Shown: piece after piece, positions 1 through 13,530 of the stretch | How positions within the stretch are numbered: position 1 is the stretch's first letter | Layout of the letters: every line of letters begins with the position of its first letter | Source of the DNA: Candidatus Moraniibacteriota bacterium | Lineage (GTDB): Bacteria; Patescibacteriota; Minisyncoccia; Moranbacterales; UBA2206 | DNA: 64,000 bases | Direction: 5' to 3' | NCBI GenBank assembly: GCA_003543115.1 | Contig: DPJH01000036.1 | Span: 9,182-73,181, forward strand | Translations under genes and position numbers: made by a program | Notes under the pieces: model-generated | Told to the model about the DNA's origin: nothing | Databases searched by the model: none | What the model saw: only the letters and a program-made list of their open reading frames with translations

Positions 1-207
1 GCATCCATCAGTCGCACCTGTTTCATTACTGAGTTTTCTTTACCGCCCTTTATCAAAATAATTTCTTCTGGATTAATATCGGATAAATCAAGTTTCGAAA
101 CAGAATATACTTGCCTATATCCGGATCCTTTTTCTTCGGTAGGGAGATTAAAATGTCTATGATATTTAGCGGTAATTTTAAAGAATTCATACACTAAGTC
201 TTTCATG
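1..207 (-). CDS. hypothetical protein, 5' portion only (gene runs off window start)
   Basis: The minus-strand ATG is at 207 and the frame stays open to position 1, translating MKDLVYEFFKITAKYHRHFNLPTEEKGSGYRQVYSVSKLDLSDINPEE. I recognised no family. Confidence 0.3.
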
Positions 208-556
208 GTTTTCTCCTTTTCGAATTTTGAGCCCGATAGTGGACGAGGTGATAAATTGTCGATGAACTTGTTAAGATGTGTTTCTTTGTTATTTCATCTT
301 AACAAGTAAGTATACCAGAAAAATGGTCAAGGGTCAATTATTATGTCTAGTGATTATTTGTTAAATATGACAAAAATTCAATAAAATAGGGATAAAATCA
401 GTAATATATTGATAGTCGTTTGTAGATGTCAAGATTATTGACTATTTTGGGGGATGTGGTAAGATGGGGTTATAATTGAGTATTTTCACACCCCCTCTTT
501 AATTCTCCCCCTCAAAGAGGAGGAGAGGATAGGGTGCGTAGCTCTATATAAATATC

Positions 557-1336
557 ATGAATCATTTAATTGAACCATTGAAAAATCTAGGTTTATCCGA
601 GAAAGAAGTCTTGGTTTATTTGGCGTTGCTTCAATTAGGCTCAGCTACTCCTTACCAAATCGCCAAAAAATCCGGCATTAAAAGGCCCACTGCTTATGTC
701 ATTGCTGAGGATTTGGTTAAAAAAGGCTTAATCGTGCATGTGCCCGGGGAAGAAAAGAAAAGATATATCGCCAAATCGCCAGAAGCTTTTATAGAGGAGC
801 GAGAAGAAAAGCTTATGGCAGCCAAGCAAATATTGCCGGAACTTAAATCATTTCAAAAAAATAGCGAACAAAAAGCTAGTATTATGTATTTTGAAGGAAT
901 GGAGGGTTTGAAACAGGCTTATCAATATAAAGAAAAAGAATTGCACAACAAAGAAATAGTAGGATTTTTCGCTTCCAATGAGGACGCCACGCCAGAAGTG
1001 AATGATTTTTTTATGAAATGGAATGAATACAAAGAAAAAAATAATACTAAAGTGCGCGGAGTAACCGTAGATACGCCGCTCTTGAAATCTTTTGATAAAT
1101 TTATCAATAAAGATATGCACACTATTACGGCCAAATTTCTACCGGAAAGCATGTATAGCGCCAAAATCTCTATTGAAGCGTGTGACGACCAATTTGTCCG
1201 AATCTTTCTTTATGAAAGCGTAGAAACATTAATTGTGGAGTCTCCCAAATTCACCAAGGCAATCAAAGAAATTTTTGAACTGGTCTGGAAAAGCCTAGAA
1301 GGAAAATACGATTCACCCTCCACCTGGGAAAAATAA
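557..1336 (+). CDS. TrmB-family HTH transcriptional regulator
   Basis: The N-terminus has a winged helix-turn-helix typical of TrmB (LSEKEVLVYLALLQLGSATPYQIAKKSGIKRPTAYVIAEDLVKKGLI) followed by a C-terminal sensor-like region. Confidence 0.6.
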   Translation: MNHLIEPLKNLGLSEKEVLVYLALLQLGSATPYQIAKKSGIKRPTAYVIAEDLVKKGLIVHVPGEEKKRYIAKSPEAFIEEREEKLMAAKQILPELKSFQKNSEQKASIMYFEGMEGLKQAYQYKEKELHNKEIVGFFASNEDATPEVNDFFMKWNEYKEKNNTKVRGVTVDTPLLKSFDKFINKDMHTITAKFLPESMYSAKISIEACDDQFVRIFLYESVETLIVESPKFTKAIKEIFELVWKSLEGKYDSPSTWEK

Positions 1337-1438
1337 TTTTTAAAATTGTTCTTGAATTTTCCGATTCCGAATGCTAAAATAAATAATAAAAGTTGCATGT
1401 ACTACGAACTATAAACTACTAACCATAAACTAAACGCT

Positions 1439-2158
1439 ATGTCAGGACATTCACATTGGGCAGGAATAAAACATAAAAAGGGCTTAAACGATGCTAAAAG
1501 GGGCAAGGTTTTCACTAAACACGCCAAGATGATCACCATTATGTCTCGAGATGGCGGAGGCAAGCCGGAAATGAATTTCCAGTTGCGCCTAGCCATTGAT
1601 CGGGCGCGTTTGGATAATATGCCTAGGGAAAACATAGAGCGCGCCATCAAAAAAGGCACCGGCGAGCTCAAGGACGGAGCGGAAATCACTGAAATCATCT
1701 ATGAAGGCATCGGACCTGGAAATGTCATGATGCTTGTCAAAACCGCGACTGACAATCGAAACAGGACAGTTAGTGAGATCAAGAGCATCTTCACTAAGGC
1801 CGGAGGGAAATTAGGCGAGATGGGAAGTTCGATGTGGAATTTCAAAAAAGTAGGCAATATCGTAATTCCTGTTTCAGAAGGCGAAGATCCATACGCCGTC
1901 GAAGAAAAAGCTATTGATGCCGGAGCGGAAGATACGCTCTATGAAGACAGCTCGCTCATTGTCTACACTCTTCCGGAAAATTTGAAAAGCGTACAGGAAA
2001 ACCTGGAAAAAATGGGAATGAAAATCGAAGATGCAGGTCTCGTTTATGCACCTTTGCAAAAAACCACCCTTTCCACTGAAGCACAAATCGATTATGAGAA
2101 ACTTCTTGAAACGCTTGATGAGCAAGATGATGTGCAGGAAATTTTCGATAATTTATAG
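1439..2158 (+). CDS. yebC: YebC/PmpR family DNA-binding regulator
   Basis: Starts MSGHSHWAGIKHKKG, the hallmark YebC N-terminus, and has the typical 239-aa length. Confidence 0.85.
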   Translation: MSGHSHWAGIKHKKGLNDAKRGKVFTKHAKMITIMSRDGGGKPEMNFQLRLAIDRARLDNMPRENIERAIKKGTGELKDGAEITEIIYEGIGPGNVMMLVKTATDNRNRTVSEIKSIFTKAGGKLGEMGSSMWNFKKVGNIVIPVSEGEDPYAVEEKAIDAGAEDTLYEDSSLIVYTLPENLKSVQENLEKMGMKIEDAGLVYAPLQKTTLSTEAQIDYEKLLETLDEQDDVQEIFDNL

Positions 2159-2285
2159 TCATAAAATTCATATCTAATCGATACGGCCATAGCTTCTTTT
2201 TTAAAGAAGCTATTTTGTCGCACATGATAAAAATTCACTTCTTAAAATCTATTTTTAAGACTATAATAGTAAGTAAGAGAATATT

Positions 2286-2801
2286 ATGGATAAAAAATTA
2301 ACCACCCAGGTTTCTGGCGTACGGGTTCTCGGCATTGATCCCGGTACCGCAACCGTAGGCTGGGCTATTATCGAAGAAATAAATGGCGTTTTATGCCCGA
2401 TAGCTTTTGGCCATATTTCTACGGAAAAAGACAAGAGTGAAGAAAATCGTCTGTGTGAAATTTCTTGCGACATTCAAAATATTATTGAAAAATATAAACC
2501 TCAAGAGGCTGCAGTGGAACAATTATTTTTTTTTAAAAACAAAAAAACCATCATCAGTATCGGACAATCCAGAGGAGCCATCCTATTGACTCTGGAGCAG
2601 AAAAATGTTAGCATATCCAGTTATACTCCGCTCCAAGTGAAACAGTCTGTAACGGGTTATGGCAAGGCAGAAAAAAGACAAATTCAGCTTATGGTAAAAA
2701 GTATCCTAAAATTAAAATCCATTCCTAAGCCTGATGACGTTGCTGATGCTATTGCTGTTGCAATTTGCCACATAAATAGCCGCAAAATTAATAATTTATA
2801 A
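2286..2801 (+). CDS. ruvC: Holliday junction resolvase RuvC
   Basis: Contains LGIDPGTATVGWAII (the RNase H-like catalytic Asp region) and a C-terminal DDVADAIAVAI motif. Length is 171 aa. Confidence 0.85.
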   Translation: MDKKLTTQVSGVRVLGIDPGTATVGWAIIEEINGVLCPIAFGHISTEKDKSEENRLCEISCDIQNIIEKYKPQEAAVEQLFFFKNKKTIISIGQSRGAILLTLEQKNVSISSYTPLQVKQSVTGYGKAEKRQIQLMVKSILKLKSIPKPDDVADAIAVAICHINSRKINNL

Positions 2802-2810
2802 CCTTCACCT

Positions 2811-3467
2811 ATGGAAACAACTATCAGTCCTATTATAAAATTCTTTATTCTGCAGGGCGTTCCTATGGAAACTATTATTCTTATCCTGATGCTCCCTCTC
2901 ATTGCTACTTTTATAGCCTTTTTACGGCAAGTAGTAGGAATTAAGGCTTTTGGAATATACACTCCGCTCATCATCACCTTTGCGTTCCTCGCCACCAATG
3001 GACTGCGCTATGGAATCGCTATTTTCCTGGTTATTCTTTTTTTAGGCATGCTTATGCGTTTTATGCTAAAGCCTTTCCGTCTGCTCTATCTTCCTCGAGT
3101 AGCTATAATGCTTACAGTGGTAGCCCTATTTATTCTTTTATTCTTATTTTTCGGAGGCGTCATACAAAGAACCGGACTGGCTTCTGTCTCCATCTTTCCC
3201 ATAGTCATTATGATCACATTAGTAGAAAAATTCGTTTCTGTTCAAATTGAAAAAGGCGACAGAACCGCTCTTATTTTGGCTTTTGAAACCCTTATAATAT
3301 CCATAATTGGTTTTTACATAGCCAGTTGGGGAACACTACGCACCATGCTATTATCCTATCCATGGCTAATCCTGCTCACCATTCCAATCAACATAATCAT
3401 TGGAAAATGGACCGGACTTCGCATCAGTGAATATATCCGTTTTCGCAATATTCTTAAAAAGCTTTAA
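2811..3467 (+). CDS. 7-TM integral membrane protein (partner of ATP-grasp ligase)
   Basis: It has about seven hydrophobic helices and lies immediately upstream of the alpha-L-glutamate-ligase-like ATP-grasp gene with a 3-nt gap. This matches the known conserved pairing of a 7TM protein with TIGR02291-type ligases. Confidence 0.5.
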   Translation: METTISPIIKFFILQGVPMETIILILMLPLIATFIAFLRQVVGIKAFGIYTPLIITFAFLATNGLRYGIAIFLVILFLGMLMRFMLKPFRLLYLPRVAIMLTVVALFILLFLFFGGVIQRTGLASVSIFPIVIMITLVEKFVSVQIEKGDRTALILAFETLIISIIGFYIASWGTLRTMLLSYPWLILLTIPINIIIGKWTGLRISEYIRFRNILKKL

Positions 3468-3470
3468 TCT

Positions 3471-4877
3471 ATGTTTCAGTTTTTCAAAAATAGCAAAAAA
3501 CTTCTCGGCATGAATTCAAGAAATCTTGAATTTATTCGGCCTTATAATCTTCGAGGTGCCAAGAGATTGGCTGATGATAAGCTTCTCAGCAAAAAAATTC
3601 TCAGAAAAAATGAAATTGCTATTCCCAGGCTTATCGCTAAAATAAAAACTATTGAAGATTTAGAAAATTTTGATTGGCAAAGCCTTCCCACCAGTTTCGC
3701 CTTGAAGCCTAGCCGAGGTTTTGGAGGAGAAGGAATCGTTGTGGTTTATGGAAAGAAAAAAAACAGAAATGATGCTTGGATAAAAGCCGATCGTTCTATT
3801 GTCACCATAGATGATCTGCGAAATCACATAAGAAACATTCTTGACGGATCTTTTTCGCTTTCCAATACGCCAGATGTAGCTTTTTTCGAAGAACGCTTGC
3901 AGCTGCTCAAGCTTTTTAAGCCTTATTGCTATAAGGGCATACCGGATATCCGTATTATTGTTTTTAATAAAGTTCCGATTATGGCTATGCTAAGACTTCC
4001 CACTAAAGAATCCCATGGAAAGGCTAATTTACAGCAAGGAGCCGTGGGAGTGGGAATTGACATGGCCACTGGCGTCACCACCACTGCTATCCAAGGCAAA
4101 AGCAGTTTCATTGAAAAAATTCCCGACACAGAACTTTCCGTTAGCGGACTTAAAATTCCCTACTGGAAAGATATGCTGACACTGGCTGTCAAAACCCAAA
4201 AAATTTCTAAATTAGGTTTTTTGGGAGTGGATGTGGCGATTGATAAGAATCTCGGACCTGTCATCCTTGAACTTAATGCCCGCCCAGGACTTTCTATTCA
4301 AGTAGCTAATTTAGCAGGACTTGCGGAAAGACTCAAAAGAGTTTCCGGATTAAAAATACAGACTATTGCCAAAGGAGTGCGCATGGGAATGGATCTTTTT
4401 GGAGGAGAGATTGAAGAAGAACTAGAGGAAATTTCCGGAAAAAAAGTAATTGGAACAATCGAAAAAGTGAGGCTCATGGGAAAAAACGGAAAAGAAATTG
4501 AAGTTGAAGCTAAAATTGACACAGGAGCGTTTTCCACTTCTATTGATACAAAAATTGCTCTAGAATTAGGATTTGAAGATGTTTTAAAATACTTTTCTTC
4601 TCTTGATTTGCCTAAAAATTTTTCCAGAGAGGAATCAAAAAAAATAGAAGAGGATCTCAAAAGAAAATATCTTGAAAAACATCCTGATTTAGCTGATATA
4701 ATTATAATATATTCTTCCAGCGGAGTTTCAGTGCGCCCTAAGATAAAAATTTCTTTTATTCTAGATGGAATAACTATTACATCCAAGGTTAATGTCATTG
4801 ACCGCAGCGAATTAAATTATTCTGCTATTATAGGAAAACAAGATTTAAGAAAATTTTTAATTGATGTAAATAAATAA
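3471..4877 (+). CDS. alpha-L-glutamate ligase-like ATP-grasp enzyme fused to a C-terminal retropepsin-like (RimB/'ATP-dependent zinc protease' PF05618-type) domain
   Basis: The N-terminus (MNSRNLEFIRPYNLRGAKRLADDKLLSKKIL...KPSRGFGGEGIVVV) matches the RimK-related alpha-L-glutamate ligase-like family. The C-terminal roughly 130 aa (IGTIEKVRLMGKNGKEIEVEAKIDTGAFSTSID) carry a D-T-G-A aspartic-protease motif like RimK-associated RimB proteins. Confidence 0.65.
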   Translation: MFQFFKNSKKLLGMNSRNLEFIRPYNLRGAKRLADDKLLSKKILRKNEIAIPRLIAKIKTIEDLENFDWQSLPTSFALKPSRGFGGEGIVVVYGKKKNRNDAWIKADRSIVTIDDLRNHIRNILDGSFSLSNTPDVAFFEERLQLLKLFKPYCYKGIPDIRIIVFNKVPIMAMLRLPTKESHGKANLQQGAVGVGIDMATGVTTTAIQGKSSFIEKIPDTELSVSGLKIPYWKDMLTLAVKTQKISKLGFLGVDVAIDKNLGPVILELNARPGLSIQVANLAGLAERLKRVSGLKIQTIAKGVRMGMDLFGGEIEEELEEISGKKVIGTIEKVRLMGKNGKEIEVEAKIDTGAFSTSIDTKIALELGFEDVLKYFSSLDLPKNFSREESKKIEEDLKRKYLEKHPDLADIIIIYSSSGVSVRPKIKISFILDGITITSKVNVIDRSELNYSAIIGKQDLRKFLIDVNK

Positions 4878-4883
4878 TGCCAG

Positions 4884-5798
4884 ATGAAAAAGATCCTACT
4901 TATCGGAATTGGGGAAGAAAATAATCCCAGCCAAAAAATAATAATTGCTCTCAAAAAACAAAAGATCCCCTATATATACACCAAATGGTCCAATCTGTCT
5001 TTTCAAGGAGAAAATGTTTATATGGGATTGGAAACAATCAACTTTAAAAACATAAGATCTGTCATATTTGATATTTTCCGTTTTCCTATAATAAAAAAAG
5101 AAAACAAAGAAGAGATCAATTACAATCTAGAAAATGAATTCAATGTATTACTCAACCTGATTAAAGAAAAAGGGATCTACACTCCAAATCAATCTTTTTT
5201 TTCACAATACCCTTTTTATAATAAATTTTCGCAAATGCACGTCTTTGCTTCAAAAAAAATCCCTTCTATACCTACTGTCCATCTTTGTGACAATAAAAAA
5301 GAAAAGGTCTTTAACTTATTAAAACAGCTCGCCCCCTCTTTTCCTTTGGTGGTAAAAGAAAGTTATGGGGGGGGTGGAAATAATGTTTGGAAAGTAAAGA
5401 CAAAAAAAGAATTGGAGAATTTTATTGAAAAGAGAAGGAATGTAAATATTGTTTTTCAGCCTTACATAAAAAATGATGCGGACTATAGGGCGATTGTCAT
5501 AAACGGAGATTGTCTTGGTATAATGAAACGAAGCGCGCAAAAGGGGCAATGGAAAAATAACTTTTCTCTAGGCGGAAAGGTGGAAAAATATGCAGATAAA
5601 AAAATGGAACGTTTTGCTGTTATGGTTTGTAAAAAATTAGGGCTTGAAATGGCTGGTCTGGATATTCTTTCCACAAAAAATGGCTTTGCAATAATTGAGA
5701 TTAACCTATTTTTCGGGCTTGATGGCTTTCAGTCAGTTTATCCTGAAATAAATGTAGCGGAAAAAATAATCAATTTTGTTAATACTAAAGTTATATGA
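4884..5798 (+). CDS. RimK/glutathione-synthetase-like ATP-grasp ligase
   Basis: Carries ATP-grasp motifs: LVVKESYGGGGNNVW, DYRAIVINGDCLG, NNFSLGGK and AGLDIL...AIIEIN. Confidence 0.6.
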   Translation: MKKILLIGIGEENNPSQKIIIALKKQKIPYIYTKWSNLSFQGENVYMGLETINFKNIRSVIFDIFRFPIIKKENKEEINYNLENEFNVLLNLIKEKGIYTPNQSFFSQYPFYNKFSQMHVFASKKIPSIPTVHLCDNKKEKVFNLLKQLAPSFPLVVKESYGGGGNNVWKVKTKKELENFIEKRRNVNIVFQPYIKNDADYRAIVINGDCLGIMKRSAQKGQWKNNFSLGGKVEKYADKKMERFAVMVCKKLGLEMAGLDILSTKNGFAIIEINLFFGLDGFQSVYPEINVAEKIINFVNTKVI

Positions 5799-6754
5799 AA
5801 AAAGTAATGATCCTTTTCGGAAAAAGCAATTGGCAAAAAGCCAAGCCTTTTTCCAATAAGGAATATCAATATTCATATGAATATTTTTATTCTTTATGCA
5901 AAAAAAATGAGATTCAGATGTATCGCGCTTCTTATCAGTGGTACGATTATAAAAATCATGTTTTTAAATATGCTTGGATTTATGAGGGAGAAAACGGAAA
6001 TTGGAAAAAAGTTAAAAATATCAAACCTGATTTGATTTATGATAAAACCAAGGCTCGCATGGAAACATATTATATGAAAGAATTGATAGGAGAAAATTAT
6101 CCATTCATCAATAATCAGCTTTTTACGAGGCTTATTGATGATAAATTCACCACCAGCCTAATTTTTTCCGATTGGAGCAAAAAAAATTGGCTTATAAAAA
6201 ATACCTCTGAACTAAGGGATGTTCTTCCCAAAATAAAAACAACGAAAATCGTTATTAAGCCTCTTATGGAAAGCGGCGGCAATGGAGTCCAGGTTTTGTC
6301 CAAAAAAGAAGCTTTGAAAAAAGCCTGTCTTCAGGAAACTAATTTAGTTCAAGAGTTCATTGATTCTTCAAAAGGAGTTCCTAATATCAGCCATTCCATG
6401 CATGATTTGCGCATAGTTATGGTTAATGAAAAAATTATTTATGCCTATATCCGAGAGCCGAAAAAGGGAAGTTATTTAGCCAACCTTGCTCAAGGCGGCT
6501 CTTTAAAAATCGTACCCAAAGAAAAACTCCCAAAATCTATTCTTCCTATAATAAAATCTGTCAATGAAATTTTGTCTTCTTTTAACCCAAGGGTTTTTTC
6601 TATAGACTTTATGTTTGATGAAAATAAAAAACCTTGGATTGTTGAACTTAATTCTATGCCGGGACTCTTTTTCACTTCAGAAGAAAAGCCTTATATGCTA
6701 GAAATGTATCAAGAATTATTAAATGTTTTTAAAAAAGAATTAAATTTGATTTAA
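5795..6754 (+). CDS. ATP-grasp ligase (YheC/YheD- or TTL-like)
   Basis: Shows KIVIKPLMESGGNGVQVL, DLRIVMVNEKIIYAYIR, ANLAQGGS and WIVELNSMPGL. Its start overlaps the stop of the upstream gene (ATGA), indicating an operon. Confidence 0.55.
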   Translation: MKKVMILFGKSNWQKAKPFSNKEYQYSYEYFYSLCKKNEIQMYRASYQWYDYKNHVFKYAWIYEGENGNWKKVKNIKPDLIYDKTKARMETYYMKELIGENYPFINNQLFTRLIDDKFTTSLIFSDWSKKNWLIKNTSELRDVLPKIKTTKIVIKPLMESGGNGVQVLSKKEALKKACLQETNLVQEFIDSSKGVPNISHSMHDLRIVMVNEKIIYAYIREPKKGSYLANLAQGGSLKIVPKEKLPKSILPIIKSVNEILSSFNPRVFSIDFMFDENKKPWIVELNSMPGLFFTSEEKPYMLEMYQELLNVFKKELNLI

Positions 6755-6760
6755 TTTCGT

Positions 6761-7249
6761 ATGCCAAGGATAATTAAAAAATTATCTGCTAAAGATAATT
6801 TGATTCTTCTTAAAATGCATAATAAAAATTTTTCTTCTTCTTATTGGGAAGAGGATAATTGGAATCACTTTTTATCACCCGACAGAAAGTCTCTTATGTG
6901 TGCCATTAAAAAGAAGGGTGCTTACGCAGGTTTTATAATGGGAAAACCCACACAAGCAAGCTGTTCTGTCATGCTCCTCAATACTCTGCTTGTAGCGCCT
7001 GCTTATAGAAAAAATGGCTATGGAAAAAGGCTGGTTGCTTTCTTTTTAAGCACTGCCTTTTCCATTCCTCAAACAAGGAAAGTGATTTTGCATTTTCGAG
7101 ATTCAAATAAAAAAATTCTTCTTCCTTTTTATAAGAAACTGGGCTTCGGAAATCATTCGATCAGGGGTTTTTATACTAATGGAGAGCTCAAGCATTATAT
7201 GTCCCTAACAAAAAAATGTTTCCTCAAAGAATCAAAAAGCCTTAGCTAA
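6761..7249 (+). CDS. GNAT family N-acetyltransferase
   Basis: Has the acetyl-CoA binding motif LVAPAYRKNGYGKRLV and is 162 aa. It is the last gene of the ATP-grasp operon. Confidence 0.6.
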   Translation: MPRIIKKLSAKDNLILLKMHNKNFSSSYWEEDNWNHFLSPDRKSLMCAIKKKGAYAGFIMGKPTQASCSVMLLNTLLVAPAYRKNGYGKRLVAFFLSTAFSIPQTRKVILHFRDSNKKILLPFYKKLGFGNHSIRGFYTNGELKHYMSLTKKCFLKESKSLS

Positions 7250-7357
7250 AAACAAGGTTTTTTTGTATACTAGTCATATAAGAACTTTTCTTGTCTAATT
7301 GTTTGAAAAGTCTTTCATTTTACTGTAAAATATAAAGAATATTAAAGTAATAATTTT

Positions 7358-9895
7358 ATGTATATTTTTTCACCTAAAAGCTCAAATAATGATTTTTCCA
7401 GAAATTTTCCACAAAAAAAATTCAAAATAAACTGGAAACTATTAAGAAAAATCTTTCTTTATTCTTTTATTGCAGGAATGCTTTTAGTGGTAGGAATTTT
7501 TGCTTGGTTCGCCAAAGACCTTCCCAGTCCTGGAAAGGTCAATACTCGCGTGGTGGCAGAATCCACGAAAATTTATGATCGCACCGGAGATCATATTCTC
7601 TATGACATCCACGGAGAAGAGAAAAGAACACAAATATCTTTTAATGACATTCCAGAAACACTGCGCTATGCCACTATTTCTCTGGAAGACCAAAATTTCT
7701 ACAGCCATCCCGGCTTTGATATTAAGGGTCTTGTTAACGCGGTTATGTCTAACATACTAAAAGTGGGCGGCGGAAGAGGCGGTTCAACCATTACGCAGCA
7801 ATTTGTTAAAAATTCACTTCTGTCCGGAGAAAGGTCATTATCTCGCAAAGTAAAAGAGTTGATTTTGGCTATAGAAATTGAAGTTAAATTCTCTAAAGAT
7901 GAGATTTTGGGAATGTACCTTAATGAAATCCCTTATGGATCAAATGCTTATGGCATAGAAGCTGCTGCCCAAACTTTTTTTGGCAAGCATGCATCCGAGC
8001 TTACACTCGACGAGGCAAGCCTTTTAGCTTCTCTTCCCCAAGCTCCTTCTTATTATTCTCCTTATGGAAGCCACACAGATGCTCTTCGCGGCAGGCAAGT
8101 ATATGCTTTGTCTCAAATGAAAAACCTTGGCTATATAACAGAAGAGCAATTTATAGCTGCTAAAGAAGTGGATGTTTTAGATAAGATAAAGCCCTCCTCA
8201 GAAAACATTTCTGCTCCTCATTTTGTAATGTATATCAAAGAATATTTGGAAAAAAACTATGGGAAGCAGGTTCTTGAGCAGGGAGGACTAAAAGTCTACA
8301 CCACTCTTGACTGGGACAAGCAACAAATAGCGGAACAAGCAGTTAGAGAAGGAGCTGAATCCAACACTAAAAAATATAAAGCAGAAAATGCCGCTTTTGT
8401 AGCTATGGACCCTAAAACCGGACAGATTTTAGCCATGGTAGGAAGCAAAGATTATTTCGATAAGTCTATCGACGGACAAGTAAATGTTTCTATTCGAGAG
8501 CGCCAACCAGGCTCATCATTCAAGCCCTTTGTCTATCTTACCGCTTTCAAAAAAGGCTACTTGCCAGAAACTCAACTTTGGGATGTAGATACGAATTTTT
8601 CTGTTGACAGCGAAAAAGATTATAATCCTAAAAATTATGACGGAAAAAATCATGGATTGCTTCAAATGAAAGATGCTCTGGCAATGTCTCTTAATGTTCC
8701 CGCCGTTAAAACTCTTTATCTTGCAGGAATTAATGATTCTATCACCACCGCCAAATCTCTTGGCATAACTACGCTTAATAAGCCTGATAATTATGGCCTT
8801 TCTCTTGTTCTTGGCGGTGGAGAGGTAACGCTTCTAGATCATGTAAACGCGTATGGAACCCTAGCTACCGGAGGAATTCATCATAATAAAACCGGCATCT
8901 TAAGAATATCTGATTCGTCCGGAAAAGTTCTTGAAGAATATAAGGAAGATCCGGGTGAACGAGTCATTGAAGAAAAATATGTAGCTATGCTTGATTATAT
9001 ACTATCTACCAATTCTCTTCGCGAATCGGTTTTTGGAAAAAATAATCCATTAAGCTTTTCTGACCGCCCTGTGGCCGCTAAAACGGGCACCACAAACGAA
9101 TGGCGTGATGGTTGGACACTTGGATACACTCCGTCTATTGCAGCTGGCGTCTGGGCAGGAAATAACGATAATACTATTATGGCTCCAGGAGCTGATGGGG
9201 TTCTTGTCGCTGCTCCTATTTGGAGAAAATTTATGGATAATGTTCTAAAAAACTATACCATTGAAGATTTTCCTAAATATGAAGAGGAAAAGGATGTAGA
9301 AAAGGATATTTTAAAAGGCAAATTAGATCCGACAGGGAAAATAGAAGTGTGTAAAATAAAAAAGGATAAGTATTGTTTAGCCAGTGACGCTTGTCCTGAC
9401 GGATATTCAGAGAAAAAAGAGTTTTTTTCCGGTCATAATATTTTATGGTATGTGGATAAAAAAGATCCCCGAGGAGACACGCCTAAAAAACCTGAAGATG
9501 ACCCCCAATATAAAAACTGGGAAAAGGCCGTTCAAAAGTATGCTGAAAAAAATAAAGATTTTAAAAAAGATTCCGCCCCTACTGAAAAATGCGAGTCTGA
9601 TGATTTTTCAAATATAGAGCCTTCTGTTGAAATAAAAAATCCTTCTAATGAATCTACCATAACATCTTTCAATTTCAATATTAGTGCTTATGGATCCTCG
9701 CCTTTTGACATAGATAAGATAACTTTATATATAAATGGCGACGAGGTGGCTTCTAATAGCGGCTCTAAAATTGATTATGAATACAAAGTGCCTTCCGAAA
9801 AGAACAATTCTGACTTAGAAATAAAAGCCACAGTGAAAGACGGAAATAACTCATCAAAATCTACCAATATAAAGGTGCATATTGCCATTCCTTAG
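7358..9895 (+). CDS. class A penicillin-binding protein (PBP1A: glycosyltransferase + transpeptidase) with C-terminal extension
   Basis: Contains the GT51 motifs EDQNFYSHPGFD and GGSTITQQ, and the transpeptidase motifs SSFKP and KTGT. An N-terminal TM anchor is present. Confidence 0.85.
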   Translation: MYIFSPKSSNNDFSRNFPQKKFKINWKLLRKIFLYSFIAGMLLVVGIFAWFAKDLPSPGKVNTRVVAESTKIYDRTGDHILYDIHGEEKRTQISFNDIPETLRYATISLEDQNFYSHPGFDIKGLVNAVMSNILKVGGGRGGSTITQQFVKNSLLSGERSLSRKVKELILAIEIEVKFSKDEILGMYLNEIPYGSNAYGIEAAAQTFFGKHASELTLDEASLLASLPQAPSYYSPYGSHTDALRGRQVYALSQMKNLGYITEEQFIAAKEVDVLDKIKPSSENISAPHFVMYIKEYLEKNYGKQVLEQGGLKVYTTLDWDKQQIAEQAVREGAESNTKKYKAENAAFVAMDPKTGQILAMVGSKDYFDKSIDGQVNVSIRERQPGSSFKPFVYLTAFKKGYLPETQLWDVDTNFSVDSEKDYNPKNYDGKNHGLLQMKDALAMSLNVPAVKTLYLAGINDSITTAKSLGITTLNKPDNYGLSLVLGGGEVTLLDHVNAYGTLATGGIHHNKTGILRISDSSGKVLEEYKEDPGERVIEEKYVAMLDYILSTNSLRESVFGKNNPLSFSDRPVAAKTGTTNEWRDGWTLGYTPSIAAGVWAGNNDNTIMAPGADGVLVAAPIWRKFMDNVLKNYTIEDFPKYEEEKDVEKDILKGKLDPTGKIEVCKIKKDKYCLASDACPDGYSEKKEFFSGHNILWYVDKKDPRGDTPKKPEDDPQYKNWEKAVQKYAEKNKDFKKDSAPTEKCESDDFSNIEPSVEIKNPSNESTITSFNFNISAYGSSPFDIDKITLYINGDEVASNSGSKIDYEYKVPSEKNNSDLEIKATVKDGNNSSKSTNIKVHIAIP

Positions 9896-10183
9896 TTTGA
9901 CAAAACATAAAAAAAGGAGTATACTGAAAATAGTTAATAAGAAACGGGTGATTTTTATCCTCCGTTTTTTATGTTTTAAAACCCCACACCAATTCCTGTT
10001 AATAAATTTTAATTGGAAGTGGCGTGGGGGCTAAAAACAAAAATAAAAATAAAAACAAATAAAGCAGCCTGCGCAAGCAGAATCAAAAAAACAAGGCTAG
10101 GTATTCCTTGCCTTAGGCCCAGAAGTTAATCTTCGAGGGTTCTAAATAAAAAGCGCCTCTCAATAAAATGGAGGCTGCTTTTT

Positions 10184-10462
10184 TTATATTTTTATTTTAT
10201 CTATCGCCTTGCCGCCTATTTCACTGTTAATTTTCCTTACTATTTTATCTCTATTAAGCCATAATTCAGAAGACCAGACGGAGCTGTTGGATTTTATAAA
10301 AATAGTCTTGTCTTTGTAATATTCCGGGCGCAAATTAGCCAGGCCAATATTCCCAAACTCTTCTTTGATTATTTTTTTAAAAATAAAAAAAATAGTCTTG
10401 TCGTCAAGATTTTTTACTTGAAAAACATTCTTTTGGGATAAATAGCTCTTAATTAATTTCAT
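10184..10462 (-). CDS. DUF721/DciA-like protein
   Basis: A 92-aa basic protein sits directly downstream of dnaN with a 1-nt gap. DUF721 (DciA) proteins characteristically sit in dnaA-dnaN operons. Confidence 0.45.
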   Translation of the reverse strand: MKLIKSYLSQKNVFQVKNLDDKTIFFIFKKIIKEEFGNIGLANLRPEYYKDKTIFIKSNSSVWSSELWLNRDKIVRKINSEIGGKAIDKIKI

Positions 10463-10463
10463 C

Positions 10464-11618
10464 CTATCCTTTTATTGGCATTACAATATATATATATTCA
10501 TCTAAAACTTCTCCTGTTTTTTCATTTATCTCCTTAATAGCCACCGGGGAAGATTCATTGTTTAATAAAATTGCCACCTTGCCGGTTCCAATAATATTTA
10601 TTCCATCTAAAAGGTATTTTGAGTTAAAAACTACTTCTTGAGATGGCCCTACGATGTCTACCATAAGCTCTGTTGAATTTTCTCCACACTCTACGCTTCT
10701 CGCTTCAATAAAAAACTTTTCTGCCTCAGAATCGATTTTAAAAACGATCTCGCTATTTTTAGTTTTGGAAAAAACGCTCGACATTTTTATTGCTCCTTGA
10801 ATAGTACTTTTTTCACCCACAACCCTTGTTTGAAATTCCTTAGGCATTATATGTTTATATTCAGGATATTTCCCATTAATAAGCCTTGATACAATATTAA
10901 CCCCATTAATCTCAAAAAATATCTGTCCATCCTCTATGGCTATATTTATTTCTTCATCTATTTCACTGTTTATGATACGAGCTATTTCTGATAGTGTATT
11001 GGCAGGTATAATTATGCTGTCTTTTTTAGAGATAAAATCAAGATAACCATCTTTTATATTACCCTCTTCCAATAAAAATTTATTTTCTACCAATCGAAAA
11101 CTGTCAGTAGAGGCAAAATATAATTCATTTTCTTTAAAAATAAGATTTATCCCTGTTAATTCTTGTCTAGTTTCATTAAAAGCCACGCAGCTAATAACCT
11201 TGTTTATTATATTTTTTAATTTAATACTAGAAAGAGTTAATATATAATCACTATTTTTCCTTGGCAAAAGAGGAAAATCATCTGCCATCAATCCTTTTAT
11301 TATTGCTTTAGATGTACCACTTTTTATTTTTAAATTCTGATTATCCACCTCTATATTAATATTTTCTCCAGAAGGAAGATTATTTATAAAATTACTTATA
11401 AGTTTTGCAGGAATTGTAATTTTTCCTTCCTTTTCAATTTTAGCTCCTATTTGTTTAGAAATACCTATTTCCAAATTTGTAGCGGATATTTTCAAAACAC
11501 CATTTTCTGTCTCAAATAATATATTATTCAAAATAGGCAATGTGTTTTGTTTAGAAACTACCCTTTCTGAATTTAGAATAGCTTTTTTGAATTTTTCTTG
11601 AGTGCATGTAAGTTTCAT
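10464..11618 (-). CDS. dnaN: DNA polymerase III beta sliding clamp
   Basis: It is 384 aa with a three-domain clamp architecture and lies immediately downstream of dnaA. Confidence 0.85.
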   Translation of the reverse strand: MKLTCTQEKFKKAILNSERVVSKQNTLPILNNILFETENGVLKISATNLEIGISKQIGAKIEKEGKITIPAKLISNFINNLPSGENINIEVDNQNLKIKSGTSKAIIKGLMADDFPLLPRKNSDYILTLSSIKLKNIINKVISCVAFNETRQELTGINLIFKENELYFASTDSFRLVENKFLLEEGNIKDGYLDFISKKDSIIIPANTLSEIARIINSEIDEEINIAIEDGQIFFEINGVNIVSRLINGKYPEYKHIMPKEFQTRVVGEKSTIQGAIKMSSVFSKTKNSEIVFKIDSEAEKFFIEARSVECGENSTELMVDIVGPSQEVVFNSKYLLDGINIIGTGKVAILLNNESSPVAIKEINEKTGEVLDEYIYIVMPIKG

Positions 11619-11890
11619 AATATTAGATATATAATATATTATTTAAATATATATAAATAAATAGTTATTATATATAGAAAACAAAATTGTTAATAAGTCT
11701 ATTTTATGGCTATAATAAAGTATTTTATCTGTGGATATTGGTGTGGATAACTAAATGATTTGGTTTATTATAAAAAGGAGTTATTTTTTAAATTTCTATA
11801 AATCACTTAATTCTAAACACCTAATCAGTCAAATACTAGAGGTTTATTTATAGGGAATAGAGAGGAAAAAAACAACTTATCCACAAGTTA
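11619..11890. promoter_or_regulatory. dnaA-dnaN intergenic region with DnaA boxes (oriC-associated / dnaN promoter)
   Basis: Perfect DnaA boxes (TTATCCACA or its complement) are at 11742-11750 and 11878-11886, plus a one-mismatch box at 11731-11739. The region is AT-rich. Confidence 0.55.
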
Positions 11891-13267: not shown

Positions 13268-13530
13268 GGTGTGATATTAATAAGAAAGATTCGTTATAAA
13301 AATAATTATATCATGCAAAAAAACAGATGTCTAAGCAAAATGTGGATAAAGGTGTGGATAAGCTGTTGTTAATAAGAAATAATCATAAATATATGTTCAT
13401 TATAGAATAGGATGGTAAAAAAGCAAATGGGAATAATTTAAATAAAAAGATAAAGCATATAATTGACTTTAGTAGAATTAATTGATAAACTTCTAATTAT
13501 TCAAAATAATAAAGAATATAATATATAAGT
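13268..13530. promoter_or_regulatory. probable oriC / dnaA promoter region (rpmH-dnaA divergent intergenic)
   Basis: Two perfect same-orientation DnaA boxes (TGTGGATAA) sit at 13341-13349 and 13353-13361, followed by a roughly 150-bp very AT-rich tract. This is the canonical rpmH<>dnaA origin context. Confidence 0.6.

What the first reader, a model, noticed from the sequence alone, without database searches (positions are those of the whole stretch)
2811..7249. Operon of a 7TM membrane protein, three tandem ATP-grasp amide ligases and a GNAT acetyltransferase
Five tightly spaced or overlapping same-strand genes. The first two form the known 7TM + alpha-L-glutamate-ligase-like pair. Here they are extended by two further, different ATP-grasp ligases (RimK-like and YheC/D- or TTL-like) and a GNAT. 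Multiple ATP-grasp ligases plus an acetyltransferase suggest stepwise amino-acid or peptide ligation. Candidates are a poly-amino-acid chain, a peptide tag on a protein, or a modified metabolite, possibly exported or sensed through the 7TM partner. I recognise no characterised pathway with this exact composition.
Basis: partly seen in the sequence, partly recalled or inferred. Interest (0 to 1): 0.7.

Follow-up and report, generated by a model that had tools for sequence, protein, structure and literature searches.

The report
Rlo-like peptide ligase–protease module, extra ligases
This Moranbacteria locus is a compact relative of the recently named Rlo/Rim glutamate-ligase plus poly-glutamate-protease systems: a membrane protein, a ligase fused to its own protease, and a fast-changing set of extra ligases whose product is still unknown.

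Summary
The five genes exist exactly as described: spacings are 3, 6, -4 and 6 nt, all on the + strand. Residues 1-305 are a TIGR02291/ATPgrasp_ST ligase. Residues ~327-468 are a retropepsin-like (RimB/RloA, PF05618) protease with an intact DTGA motif.

Genes 1-2 are therefore a compact, cytoplasmic-protease version of the P. aeruginosa RloB-RloC-RloA system (mBio 2025). The pair occurs in at least 591 species-level genomes. Its ligase domain is more conserved than the neighbouring RuvC, YebC and PBP1A.

In Moranbacteria the frame YebC-RuvC-7TM-fusion-[slot]-PBP1A is fixed. The slot is hypervariable, with 41 architectures in 64 species. It holds 1-3 extra ATP-grasp genes in 59 of 64 loci, and sometimes MATCAP-type carboxypeptidase, YdjC, glycosyltransferases, a CphA-like Mur ligase or a GNAT. 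The window's combination (g3-g4-GNAT) is seen nowhere else.

Extra ligases also follow the pair in unrelated genomic contexts. Natural fusions exist of ligase+protease with MATCAP, YdjC or a second ATP-grasp, and of the 7TM with the ligase. These support a functional link.

Most likely function: membrane-tethered synthesis and trimming of an acidic, Glu-rich peptide chain, diversified by the accessory ligases. The acceptor and product are unknown. I rate it a new variant of a known kind.

The parts
2811..3467 (+). g1: short RloB-like 7TM membrane protein. It has no extracytoplasmic domain. Predicted N-terminus out, basic C-terminal tail in.
   Evidence: PF14402 7.6e-30. NCBIfam RloB NF052267 matches only model positions 304-507 of 508. 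About seven hydrophobic segments; the C-tail has 5 K/R. It directly precedes the fusion gene in all loci with upstream sequence.
3471..4385 (+). g2 N-terminal domain (residues 1-305): RloC-like ATP-grasp ligase (ATPgrasp_ST / TIGR02291-like).
   Evidence: PF14397 2.6e-70, residues 17-292. TIGR02291 293.9 bits against a cutoff of 314.2. Mg/ATP motif E267-x-N269-x-R271 is invariant. Median identity is 68.8% across 46 genomes, higher than RuvC, YebC or PBP1A.
4392..4448 (+). g2 linker (residues 308-326): DLFGGEIEEELEEISGKKV, a nearly invariant Glu-rich segment.
   Evidence: Conservation over 78 species. pLDDT is below 50 in the AF2 model. Its role is unresolved.
4449..4877 (+). g2 C-terminal domain (residues ~327-468): retropepsin-like aspartic protease (RimB/RloA family). 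The DTGA motif lies at nt 4518-4529.
   Evidence: PF05618 1.3e-7 (32 bits, cutoff 27). NCBIfam RloA1-3, 26-29 bits. PDB 9G59/9G58 by sequence and by fold, with Ddi1 RVP. D350/T351/G352/A353, R422 and R445 are invariant and K348 is nearly invariant. No signal peptide or TM segment.
4884..5798 (+). g3: RimK-like ATP-grasp ligase, an accessory gene of the slot (family AGg3).
   Evidence: PF08443 3.3e-29. TIGR00768 116.7 bits, below the 143.4 cutoff. PDB RimK 7QYR/5ZCT/4IWX at about 1e-14. AGg3 family members sit in 36 slot ORFs of the first 80 loci.
5795..6754 (+). g4: ATP-grasp ligase of a family seen only in Moranbacteria/Parcubacteria-named records, an accessory gene of the slot (family AGg4).
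   Evidence: Weak multi-family ATP-grasp hits. 405 homologs; the 120 listed are 64-84% identical, and every source name given is a Patescibacteria-group one. AF2 pLDDT 88.8. Nearest folds are GshB, ArgX/LysX and RimK at TM ~0.65. It is the first gene after the fusion in 30 of 64 slots.
6761..7249 (+). g5: GNAT N-acetyltransferase, a sporadic slot member with the weakest link to the module.
   Evidence: PF00583 2.7e-12. RimI TIGR01575 42.5 bits, below the 86.4 cutoff. It is the only hit in the 5.8e9-cluster search. Distant GNATs occupy the same slot position in L018, L044, L053, L107, L125 and L128.
2286..2801 (+). RuvC: conserved upstream frame gene (context, not part of the module).
   Evidence: Conserved order YebC-RuvC-7TM-fusion in most of 80 genome loci. 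PF02075.
7358..9895 (+). PBP1A (class A penicillin-binding protein): conserved downstream frame gene that closes the variable slot.
   Evidence: Transgly + Transpeptidase. It lies downstream of the slot in 64 of 80 loci. A sigma-70-like site at 7303-7331 matches 10 of 12 positions, but the scan as a whole is not above chance.

Best explanation
The locus is a Patescibacterial, compact form of the Rlo/Rim type of peptide-ligase plus peptidase module.

Proposed mechanism:
1. g1 is a 7TM membrane protein of the RloB family without an outer domain. It holds g2 at the cytoplasmic face of the membrane.
2. The N-terminal ATP-grasp domain of g2 (RloC/RimK-like) uses ATP to add amino acids, most likely glutamate, one after another to a carboxyl end. 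This makes an acidic alpha-linked peptide chain.
3. The C-terminal retropepsin domain of the same polypeptide acts as a dimer. It cuts such chains, so chain length is set by a built-in writer/eraser pair. RimB does this for RimK, and RloA is inferred to do it for RloC.
4. g3 (RimK-like) and g4 (a family seen only in Moranbacteria/Parcubacteria-named records) come from a hypervariable accessory slot. They add further or different residues to the same product.
5. The GNAT g5 may acetylate a free amino group. This is the weakest step.
6. The product is probably linked to the cell envelope.

Shown: domain identities, intact catalytic motifs, conserved adjacency, natural fusions, and strong purifying selection on the ligase.
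Inferred: glutamate as the substrate, chain trimming, membrane tethering, co-operation of g3/g4/g5 on one product, and an envelope destination.
For: - Domains and motifs. K348/D350/R422/R445 in g2 have the same spacing as K46/D48/R114/R137, the residues RloA uses for poly-Glu binding and catalysis.
- Literature: RimB cleaves poly-Glu tails and stimulates RimK poly-alpha-Glu synthesis. A RimB-RimK hybrid exists and is proteolytically active (PMC11957791). RloA cleaves stretches of at least 8 Glu. Deleting rloB or rloC suppresses the rloA1-3 triple mutant, which places all three in one pathway (PMC12239564).
- Conservation: the pair is in at least 591 species-level genomes. The ligase domain shows 68.8% median identity, against 54-61% for YebC, RuvC and PBP1A.
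- Accessory ligases: 59 of 64 slots hold 1-3 extra ATP-grasp genes, and an ATP-grasp gene is first after the fusion in 59 of 64. The same holds in 18 of 25 loci outside the Moranbacteria synteny.
- Natural fusions: ligase+retropepsin+MATCAP, +YdjC, +second ATP-grasp; 7TM+ligase; transglutaminase+7TM+ligase.
- Slot peptidases: the MATCAP-type proteins keep HExxxH (9 of 9) and have no TM segment. The MATCAP/TMCP family removes C-terminal Tyr/Glu and polyglutamylation (PMC10499314).
- Other slot ligases resemble the G and M domains of cyanophycin synthetase, a poly-amino-acid synthetase.
- Envelope link: glycosyltransferases, YdjC and Wzy_C occur in slots. PBP1A or MreB are neighbours. Long 7TM forms carry an outer PKD domain. 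Pseudomonas rlo phenotypes are osmotic, beta-lactam and cell-shape defects.
Against: - No product, acceptor or amino-acid specificity is known, either here or for RloC itself.
- g2 falls just below the TIGR02291 cutoff and far below the RloA and RloB model cutoffs.
- The protease here is cytoplasmic, whereas RloA is secreted. An exported product trimmed outside the cell cannot be the mechanism here.
- The window holds no rpsF and no acidic-tailed protein. The 7TM C-tail is basic and variable.
- Co-transcription is not shown: the promoter/terminator scan is at chance level.
- Much of the co-occurrence evidence comes from one clade with conserved synteny.
- The GNAT is rare and an orphan.
- Triple-fusion loci lack extra ligases, so the extra ligases are not needed by every form of the module.
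Confidence: 0.5

Rival explanations
1. Cytoplasmic protein-tail editing. The ligases add residues to, and the protease removes them from, the C-terminus of a cytoplasmic protein such as ribosomal protein S6, as RimK/RimB do. This would retune translation. The 7TM protein would be only a sensor or regulator of that activity.
For: - Protease and ligase are fused and lack any signal peptide. This matches the topology of the cytoplasmic RimK/RimB pair and the RimBK hybrid.
- g3 is closest to the solved RimK structures.
- MATCAP-family enzymes act on protein C-terminal tails.
Against: - g3 fails the RimK family cutoff and the S6-ligase equivalog cutoff: 116.7 against 143.4, and 62.6 against 331.
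- g2 is of the RloC/ATPgrasp_ST type, not RimK.
- No rpsF lies in the 64-kb window, so its tail could not be checked.
- The strict pairing with a 7TM protein, and the glycosyltransferase, YdjC and Wzy genes in the slot, have no role in this model.
- In P. aeruginosa, rimB does not interact genetically with the rlo genes.
Confidence: 0.15
2. Cell-wall or glycopolymer decoration. The accessory ATP-grasp ligases attach amino acids to peptidoglycan precursors (stem peptide or cross-bridge) or to sugar acids or amino sugars of a surface glycopolymer. This would give species-specific wall chemistry. The 7TM-fusion pair would be a separate or only loosely coupled envelope-homeostasis module.
For: - The slot always abuts PBP1A in Moranbacteria. 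In another lineage the module abuts MreB and a GT28/MGDG-synthase-like gene.
- Slots contain GT4, GT2, GT8-like, YdjC deacetylase, Wzy_C and Mur-ligase-like genes.
- Pfam defines PF14397 as 'sugar-transfer associated'.
- Hypervariability between close relatives is typical of surface-structure loci. This last point rests on general knowledge.
Against: - No slot ligase reaches any Ddl, Mur or pseudomurein model cutoff.
- The window itself has no glycosyltransferase.
- Fusions tie the second ATP-grasp, MATCAP and YdjC to the core ligase-protease rather than to wall enzymes.
- Adjacency to PBP1A may simply be inherited synteny.
Confidence: 0.15
3. Independent small-molecule pathway. g3-g5 are unrelated to g1-g2 and merely sit in a recombination hot spot. 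They would make or modify a soluble metabolite, for example an N-acetylated di- or tripeptide osmolyte like N-acetylglutaminylglutamine amide, or a glutamyl tail on a cofactor.
For: - GNAT plus ATP-grasp is the make-up of NAGGN synthetase. The related AGc2 slot ligases score 100-116 bits on TIGR03103, and g4 shows a trace hit.
- g3 hits the MptN and CofF cofactor-glutamate ligase models at 88 and 55 bits.
- Slot content varies freely while the core stays fixed.
Against: - All these hits are far below cutoffs.
- Extra ATP-grasp genes follow the core pair in at least three unrelated genomic contexts, and a second ATP-grasp is sometimes fused to the core.
- Within the 20-kb loci examined, all g3- and g4-like genes lie inside the slot.
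- The GNAT is absent from more than 90% of slots.
Confidence: 0.12
4. Graspetide (microviridin-like) RiPP cluster. Two ATP-grasp macrocyclases plus a GNAT would modify a ribosomal precursor peptide.
For: - Microviridin clusters have two ATP-grasp ligases and a GNAT (general knowledge).
- CPR bacteria do encode graspetide clusters (PMC8939145).
- g3 has a trace MvdC hit.
Against: - The MvdC score is 26 bits against a cutoff of 425.
- There is no room for, and no ORF of, a precursor peptide in or beside the cluster.
- The CPR graspetide loci described have different partners: TPR proteins, 'cluster 23' proteins and zincins.
- g3 and g4 are closest to RimK, GshB and LysX, not to macrocyclases.
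Confidence: 0.03

Closest known systems
RloABC operon of Pseudomonas aeruginosa (Lormand et al., mBio 2025, PMC12239564)
   Same: The same three protein families sit side by side: a PF14402 7TM membrane protein (RloB), a TIGR02291/ATPgrasp_ST ATP-grasp (RloC), and a PF05618 retropepsin-like aspartic protease (RloA) with a DTG motif and the basic residues used for poly-Glu binding.
   Different: - The protease here is fused to the C-terminus of the ligase and has no signal peptide, so it is cytoplasmic. RloA is secreted.
- The 7TM protein lacks the inactive transglutaminase domain. Related CPR forms carry a PKD domain instead.
- One to three extra ATP-grasp ligases and other enzymes follow the pair.
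- The host is a Patescibacterium, whereas the paper reports RloB as 96% Proteobacteria.
- None of the NCBIfam Rlo model cutoffs is reached.
RimK/RimB and the RimBK hybrid (Little/Malone lab; PMC11957791, PMC7343187)
   Same: An ATP-grasp glutamate ligase is paired with a retropepsin-like endopeptidase that trims poly-Glu and binds the ligase. A natural ligase-protease fusion exists and is proteolytically active. Both enzymes are cytoplasmic.
   Different: - Domain order is reversed: RimBK has the protease N-terminal, while here the ligase is N-terminal. This points to an independent fusion.
- The ligase here is RloC-type, not RimK.
- A 7TM partner is obligatory here.
- There is no evidence for S6 as a target.
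- There is no RimA/c-di-GMP control.
Tubulin tail code: TTL/TTLL ATP-grasp ligases with MATCAP/TMCP and CCP carboxypeptidases (PMC10499314)
   Same: The logic is the same: ATP-grasp 'writers' add Glu or Tyr to acidic C-terminal tails, and dedicated peptidases erase them. Related loci, and about 40 of the top 150 representative proteins, fuse or juxtapose a MATCAP-family HExxxH carboxypeptidase with the ligase-protease.
   Different: - The system is bacterial, has no tubulin, and its acceptor is unknown.
- The window itself has no MATCAP gene.
- The resemblance is one of logic and family, not of pathway.
Cyanophycin synthetase CphA1 (ATP-grasp G domain plus Mur-ligase-like M domain)
   Same: In related loci the slot carries ATP-grasp genes that score 204-235 bits on the CphA G-domain region, and Mur-ligase-like genes that match the M-domain region. 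In L075 the two are adjacent. This is non-ribosomal poly-amino-acid synthesis.
   Different: - The domains are split into separate genes, and scores are far below the CphA cutoff of 850.
- These genes are not present in the window, where g3 and g4 score only 23 bits or less on CphA.
Microviridin/graspetide clusters and NAGGN synthetase (GNAT + ATP-grasp)
   Same: The gene content is superficially the same: ATP-grasp ligases plus a GNAT.
   Different: There is no precursor peptide and no amidotransferase. Family scores are negligible. The GNAT is not conserved in the slot.

Membership tests
Rlo system (RloA/RloB/RloC) | RloB-type 7TM membrane domain (PF14402) | tested here: met
   g1 scores 104.6 bits on PF14402 (cutoff 25). 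It matches positions 304-507 of the 508-position RloB model NF052267.
Rlo system (RloA/RloB/RloC) | Inactive transglutaminase domain on the outer side of RloB | tested here: not met
   g1 is only 218 aa, with 19 residues before the first TM segment. It scores 81.5 bits on NF052267 against a cutoff of 900. Long CPR forms carry PKD instead.
Rlo system (RloA/RloB/RloC) | RloC-type ATP-grasp (TIGR02291 alpha-L-glutamate ligase-like) | tested here: inconclusive
   g2 residues 8-300 score 293.9 bits on TIGR02291 against a cutoff of 314.2. PF14397 scores 237 bits, well above its cutoff.
Rlo system (RloA/RloB/RloC) | Retropepsin-like protease with catalytic Asp and poly-Glu-binding Lys/Arg | tested here: met
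   PF05618 scores 32 bits (cutoff 27). D350-T-G-A, R422 and R445 are invariant and K348 nearly invariant, with RloA-like spacing. The RloA1-3 equivalog cutoffs (210-280 bits) are not reached: scores are 26-29 bits.
Rlo system (RloA/RloB/RloC) | Protease carries a signal peptide and is secreted | tested here: not met
   The protease domain is internal, at the C-terminus of a soluble ligase. No hydrophobic segment is present: maximum KD19 is 1.27.
Rlo system (RloA/RloB/RloC) | Role in hypo-osmotic tolerance, cell shape and antibiotic tolerance | not testable with these tools
   This needs genetics in a cultivable host.
RimK family alpha-L-glutamate ligases (g3) | Score above the TIGR00768 family cutoff or the PRK10446 S6-ligase cutoff | tested here: not met
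   116.7 bits against 143.4, and 62.6 bits against 331. The Pfam RimK domain is met at 102 bits. The best PDB relatives are RimK.
RimK family alpha-L-glutamate ligases (g3) | S6 (RpsF) with a Glu-Glu C-terminus as substrate | not tested
   No rpsF lies in the 64-kb window. The rest of the genome was not available.
   Both pass their Pfam cutoffs (34.5 and 38.1 bits) but rank below RimK (52.6), ATPgrasp_ST (45.8) and GSH-S (39.7). The fold is nearest to GshB, ArgX/LysX and RimK, and no TTL structure appears among the top 50 hits.
RimI S18 acetyltransferase (g5) | Score above the TIGR01575 cutoff | tested here: not met
   42.5 bits against 86.4. It is a generic GNAT only.
Graspetide / microviridin cluster | MvdC/MvdD-type macrocyclase and an adjacent precursor peptide gene | tested here: not met
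   TIGR04185 scores 26 bits against 425. No free small ORF lies in or beside the cluster.
Anti-phage defence systems | Match to any PADLOC model | tested here: not met
   No hits for g1-g5.

The most novel reading that the evidence does not exclude
Patescibacteria with minimal genomes keep a near-universal, strongly conserved 'peptide-tail code'. The parts would be a membrane-tethered polyglutamylase fused to its own endopeptidase eraser, with interchangeable extra writers (RimK-like, CphA-like and clade-specific ATP-grasps) and a MATCAP-family carboxypeptidase eraser. On this reading it is a prokaryotic counterpart, and possibly the evolutionary source, of the eukaryotic tubulin tyrosination/glutamylation cycle. 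It would write species-specific acidic peptide tails on an envelope-associated acceptor that matters for cell shape or for attachment to the host.
Probability: 0.2. Interest if true: 0.85.

Novelty: new variant of a known kind. Interest (0 to 1): 0.6.

Why it matters
The Rlo system was named only in 2025. It is known only from genetics in Pseudomonas, its product is unknown, and RloB was reported as 96% proteobacterial.

This locus shows a streamlined form in CPR bacteria, found in hundreds of species. Its ligase is under stronger constraint than the RuvC, YebC and PBP1A genes beside it. For organisms with very small genomes, that suggests an important function.

The natural fusions of ligase with protease, MATCAP, YdjC or a second ligase, and of the 7TM with the ligase, amount to a parts list obtained without experiments. 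They say which enzymes work on one product, and they point to an acidic peptide that is written and erased. The two-gene core (about 2 kb) plus defined accessory ligases would be a far simpler object for biochemical reconstitution than the Pseudomonas system. That could answer the open question of what RloC makes.

The link to MATCAP-family peptidases also bears on the bacterial origin of the tubulin-modifying enzymes.

Tried and rejected
- Promoter/terminator scan of 1-10500: counts were at chance level, so it gives no operon boundaries.
- GC and GC3 per gene: g3 and g4 (0.31-0.32) lie within 1.3 sd of the window's genes, so there is no horizontal-transfer signal.
- Search for a precursor peptide or small ORF: none, and there is no room for one. 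The graspetide reading was rejected.
- Search for rpsF and for acidic-tailed proteins in the window: none.
- Test of the 7TM C-terminus as a RimK-type acceptor: the tail is basic and variable, and ends in E in none of the 75 sequences. Rejected.
- PADLOC defence models: no hits.
- AF2 model of g2: only the protease half is confident, and the linker and much of the ligase half are poor. It says nothing on whether the Glu-rich linker sits in the active site.
- Homolog search for g5: it returned only g5 itself, so GNAT contexts could not be surveyed that way.
- The listing of cluster members: it gave almost no taxonomy for the fusion classes.
- Iyer et al. 2009 (PMC3268129), the source of the Pfam families involved, is not held. 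What I say of it comes from citing papers or from memory.
- Rfam and tRNA scans: nothing in or near the locus.

Full report
**1. The observation**

- g1 2811-3467 (218 aa)
- g2 3471-4877 (468 aa)
- g3 4884-5798 (304 aa)
- g4 5795-6754 (319 aa)
- g5 6761-7249 (162 aa)

The gaps are 3, 6, -4 and 6 nt. RuvC ends 9 nt before g1, and PBP1A starts 108 nt after g5. The conserved N-terminus MKKVMILFGKS in g4 homologs supports the overlapping ATG at 5795. The shorter 315-aa call in a public record is less likely.

- g1 is PF14402 7TM_transglut.
- g2 is PF14397 ATPgrasp_ST and TIGR02291-like, at 293.9 bits against a cutoff of 314.2.
- g3 is RimK-like.
- g4 is a divergent ATP-grasp.
- g5 is a GNAT.

g1 has about seven hydrophobic segments and a basic C-terminal tail, so the predicted topology is N-out, C-in. 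The other four proteins have no membrane segment.

**2.

Residues ~327-468 of g2 form a retropepsin-like aspartic protease domain.
- Sequence profiles: PF05618 at 1.3e-7, and NCBIfam RloA1/2/3.
- Solved structures by sequence: 9G59 and 9G58.
- Fold search: Ddi1 retroviral-protease-like domains; 9G58, described as P. fluorescens RloA; and 9G59, described as P. aeruginosa RloA2.

The AF2 model is confident only for this half, with pLDDT 80-90. Over 21 homologs, D350-T-G-A353, R422 and R445 are invariant and K348 is nearly invariant. Their spacing equals that of K46, D48, R114 and R137 of RloA. In RloA those residues were shown by mutagenesis to carry catalysis and poly-glutamate binding (PMC12239564).

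The ligase motif E267-x-N269-x-R271 is also invariant. g2 therefore looks like an active ligase fused to an active protease.

**3. The known relatives**

*RloABC.* In P. aeruginosa the rloABC operon encodes three proteins (PMC12239564):
- RloA is a secreted retropepsin. It cleaves stretches of 8 or more Glu.
- RloB is an inactive transglutaminase fused to a 7TM domain.
- RloC is a cytoplasmic ATP-grasp.

Loss of the three RloA paralogs causes hypo-osmotic lethality, cell-shape defects and antibiotic sensitivity. Deleting rloB or rloC suppresses these defects.

*RimK/RimB.* In this cytoplasmic system RimB cuts poly-Glu tails from ribosomal protein S6 and stimulates poly-alpha-Glu synthesis by RimK. 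A natural RimB-RimK hybrid, with the protease N-terminal, is proteolytically active (PMC11957791).

*How the window differs.* The window's g1-g2 pair has the family content of RloB-RloC-RloA with three differences.
- The protease is fused behind the ligase, in the opposite order to RimBK.
- It has no signal peptide.
- The membrane protein has no outer domain.

**4. How widespread and how constrained**

The window is from a Candidatus Moranbacteria MAG: g2 is 100% identical to the NCBI protein DIC35_03220. The g2 fusion has more than 5,400 relatives at E<=1e-10, and the best 120 are 67-82% identical over the full length.

Across the 46 genomes that carry all the flanking genes, median identity to the window is as follows:

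| Protein or domain | Median identity |
|---|---|
| g2 ligase domain | 68.8% |
| g1 7TM | 62.4% |
| RuvC | 61.2% |
| PBP1A | 59.2% |
| YebC | 54.0% |
| g2 protease domain | 51.5% |

The core ligase is thus at least as constrained as the housekeeping genes beside it.

**5. A fixed frame with a hypervariable slot**

In the 80 genome loci the order YebC-RuvC-7TM-fusion-[slot]-PBP1A is nearly constant. I clustered the slot ORFs and annotated cluster representatives. The slot holds:
- g4-like ATP-grasps (47 ORFs)
- g3/RimK-like ATP-grasps (36)
- A third ATP-grasp family, AGc2 (29). It scores 204-235 bits on the ATP-grasp region of cyanophycin synthetase.
- GT4 glycosyltransferases (11)
- MATCAP/DUF1704 'QEGLA' metallopeptidases (10)
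- YdjC deacetylases (6)
- GT2 and GT8-like transferases, and a Wzy_C protein
- Mur-ligase-like proteins that match the M domain of cyanophycin synthetase
- A few GNATs

Of 64 complete slots, 59 contain one to three extra ATP-grasp genes. In 59 the first gene after the fusion is an ATP-grasp. There are 41 different architectures, and g3-like plus g4-like genes occur together in 20.

None of these loci has the window's g3-g4-GNAT arrangement. The nearest relatives differ too:
- At 82% g2 identity, the slot starts with a GT4.
- At 77%, it is g4-like, GT4, two unknown genes, then PBP1A.
- At 78%, it is g4-like, g3-like, then PBP1A.

g5 has no close relative among 5.8 billion protein clusters. GC content gives no sign of recent import.

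**6. Is the neighbourhood functional or only inherited?**

Two lines of evidence argue for function.

*Other genomic contexts.* A metagenome scan seeded with more distant relatives gave 80 further loci, which I annotated with local HMMs.
- 25 two-domain fusions lie in genomic contexts without YebC, RuvC or PBP1A. Of these, 18 still have one to three ATP-grasp genes directly downstream.
- One recurrent arrangement is 7TM-fusion-AGc2-long AGc2-AGg3, with a MATCAP gene on the other strand (for example L147, L141, L160). In L147 the next neighbours are MreB and a GT28/MGDG-synthase-like gene.

*Gene fusions.* A search of 1.84 billion representative proteins gave 1,977 relatives. Among the best 150, about 40 are proteins of ~790 aa. 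Pfam shows these to be ligase + retropepsin + MATCAP. Other fusions are:
- ligase + retropepsin + YdjC
- ligase + retropepsin + second ATP-grasp
- 7TM + ligase
- transglutaminase + 7TM + ligase

The triple fusions recur on several independent contigs with the same length. They keep the HExxxH and EEG metal motifs.

Free-standing slot MATCAPs all keep HExxxH and have no membrane segment. The MATCAP/TMCP family removes C-terminal Tyr and Glu and also posttranslational polyglutamylation from tubulin (PMC10499314).

There is also an unexplained pattern. 23 of 24 triple-fusion loci have no extra ATP-grasp genes, and most of them pair with a long 7TM protein (about 500-535 aa). The two long forms scanned carry an outer PKD domain.

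**7. The accessory ligases of the window**

- g3 is nearest to the solved RimK structures (7QYR, 5ZCT, 4IWX, at about 1e-14). It is below the RimK family cutoff and the S6-ligase cutoff.
- g4 belongs to a family of about 400 proteins. Where the source gives a name, it is Moranbacteria, Parcubacteria or Patescibacteria, and the 120 listed are 64-84% identical to g4. Its confident model resembles GshB, ArgX/LysX and RimK about equally, at TM ~0.65. The glycine-rich loop and the Mg-binding D271, E284 and N286 are invariant.
- g5 has the usual acetyl-CoA loop (RKNGYGKR, read directly from the sequence). It is below the RimI cutoff.

Nothing in the data tells which amino acids g3 and g4 add, or to what they add them.

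**8. Most likely mechanism**

I commit to the following model, with about 0.5 confidence for the general scheme.
- g1 anchors g2 at the inner face of the membrane.
- The ligase domain of g2 builds an acidic, probably Glu-rich, alpha-linked chain.
- The fused retropepsin dimer trims it.
- g3 and g4 extend or vary the chain.
- g5 may cap an amino group.
- The product ends up in, or acts on, the cell envelope.

The envelope link rests on five observations:
- the obligatory membrane partner;
- the outer PKD or transglutaminase domains in long forms of the 7TM protein;
- the glycan enzymes found in slots;
- the PBP1A and MreB neighbours;
- the Pseudomonas phenotypes.

The main difficulty is topology. 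Here both erasers are cytoplasmic, whereas RloA works outside the cytoplasm. Editing must therefore precede any export in this form of the system.

The nearly invariant linker LFGGE[IV]EEE[ILV]E[ED][IL]SG could be a self-cleavage site or a pseudo-substrate. However, RloA needs 8 uninterrupted Glu, and triple fusions keep only LFG..E...E..SGK. A conserved helix is therefore at least as likely.

**9. Rivals**

The rivals are: tail editing of a cytoplasmic protein of the RimK/S6 kind; decoration of peptidoglycan or a glycopolymer; an independent small-molecule pathway; and a graspetide cluster. Each is weighed in its own section of this report. The graspetide reading is close to excluded. Defence-system membership is also excluded.

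**10. Novelty and verdict**

The locus is a new variant of a known kind: an Rlo/Rim-type ligase-protease module in a fused, cytoplasmic form with a short 7TM partner, joined to a hypervariable accessory-ligase slot in CPR bacteria. The papers I found do not describe this variant. The Rlo paper reports RloB as 96% proteobacterial, and the RimBK hybrid has the opposite domain order.

Interest is 0.6. The system is widespread, strongly conserved in minimal genomes and easy to reconstitute. Its fusions with MATCAP-family peptidases connect it to the tubulin-modifying enzymes. Its product is still unknown, and the window's particular five-gene set is one of many interchangeable versions.

Noticed in passing
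window 11730-11885 and 13341-13361 (with dnaN 10464-11618, dnaA 11891-13267 and DciA 10184-10462 on the - strand): Perfect or 1-mismatch DnaA boxes cluster in the AT-rich dnaN-dnaA spacer (GC 0.22) and just upstream of dnaA. This looks like the chromosomal origin, about 4.5 kb from the locus. Box matches in the whole window (30) exceed all 100 shuffles.
   Followed up: partly
window 4392-4448 (g2 residues 308-326): The Glu-rich linker DLFGGEIEEELEEISGKKV between the ligase and protease domains is nearly invariant over 78 species. It is more conserved than most of the protease domain. It could be a self-cleavage site, a pseudo-substrate or a helix. AF2 confidence is below 50 there.
   Followed up: partly
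L075 slot (ORFs at +16..1026 and +1037..2308 after the fusion gene); L019:13220-14431; L011:5350-6333; L147:10451-12151: Some related slots carry a split cyanophycin-synthetase-like pair. One gene is an ATP-grasp matching the CphA G domain (204-235 bits). The other is a Mur-ligase-like gene matching the CphA M domain (107 bits).
   Followed up: partly
L081-L101, L115, L116, L158 (e.g. L083:6425-7966 and 7977-10367): There is a distinct class of loci. A long PKD-domain + 7TM protein is followed by a ~790-aa triple fusion of ATP-grasp, retropepsin (sometimes not detected by my HMM) and MATCAP-type HExxxH carboxypeptidase. Almost none of these loci has extra ATP-grasp genes.
   Followed up: partly
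window 6761-7249 (g5): In the word-indexed search of 5.8 billion protein clusters the GNAT matches only itself at E<=1e-8. Only distant GNATs (40-63 bits) occupy the same slot position in six other loci. It is an orphan-like, fast-evolving gene.
   Followed up: yes
window 557-1336: A TrmB-family transcription regulator lies upstream of YebC. TrmB-like genes recur at this position in roughly a quarter of the related genome loci. Whether it regulates the block was not examined.
   Followed up: no
L080:3174-4151: In a distant Parcubacteria locus, a DUF3541 protein (PF12060, 3.2e-31) sits between the fusion gene and a RimK-like ligase. This uncharacterised family may be another accessory part.
   Followed up: no
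window 4298-4798 (- strand): A 166-aa antisense ORF lies wholly inside g2. It is most likely a chance ORF in AT-rich DNA. No evidence for it was sought.
   Followed up: no
Genome contigs record titles for L001-L080: Many contigs that carry this clearly Moranbacteria-type syntenic block are titled 'uncultured Bdellovibrionales', 'Micavibrio', 'Bathyarchaeia' or 'Fimivivens' in their public records. These are probably taxonomic mislabels of MAGs.
   Followed up: no
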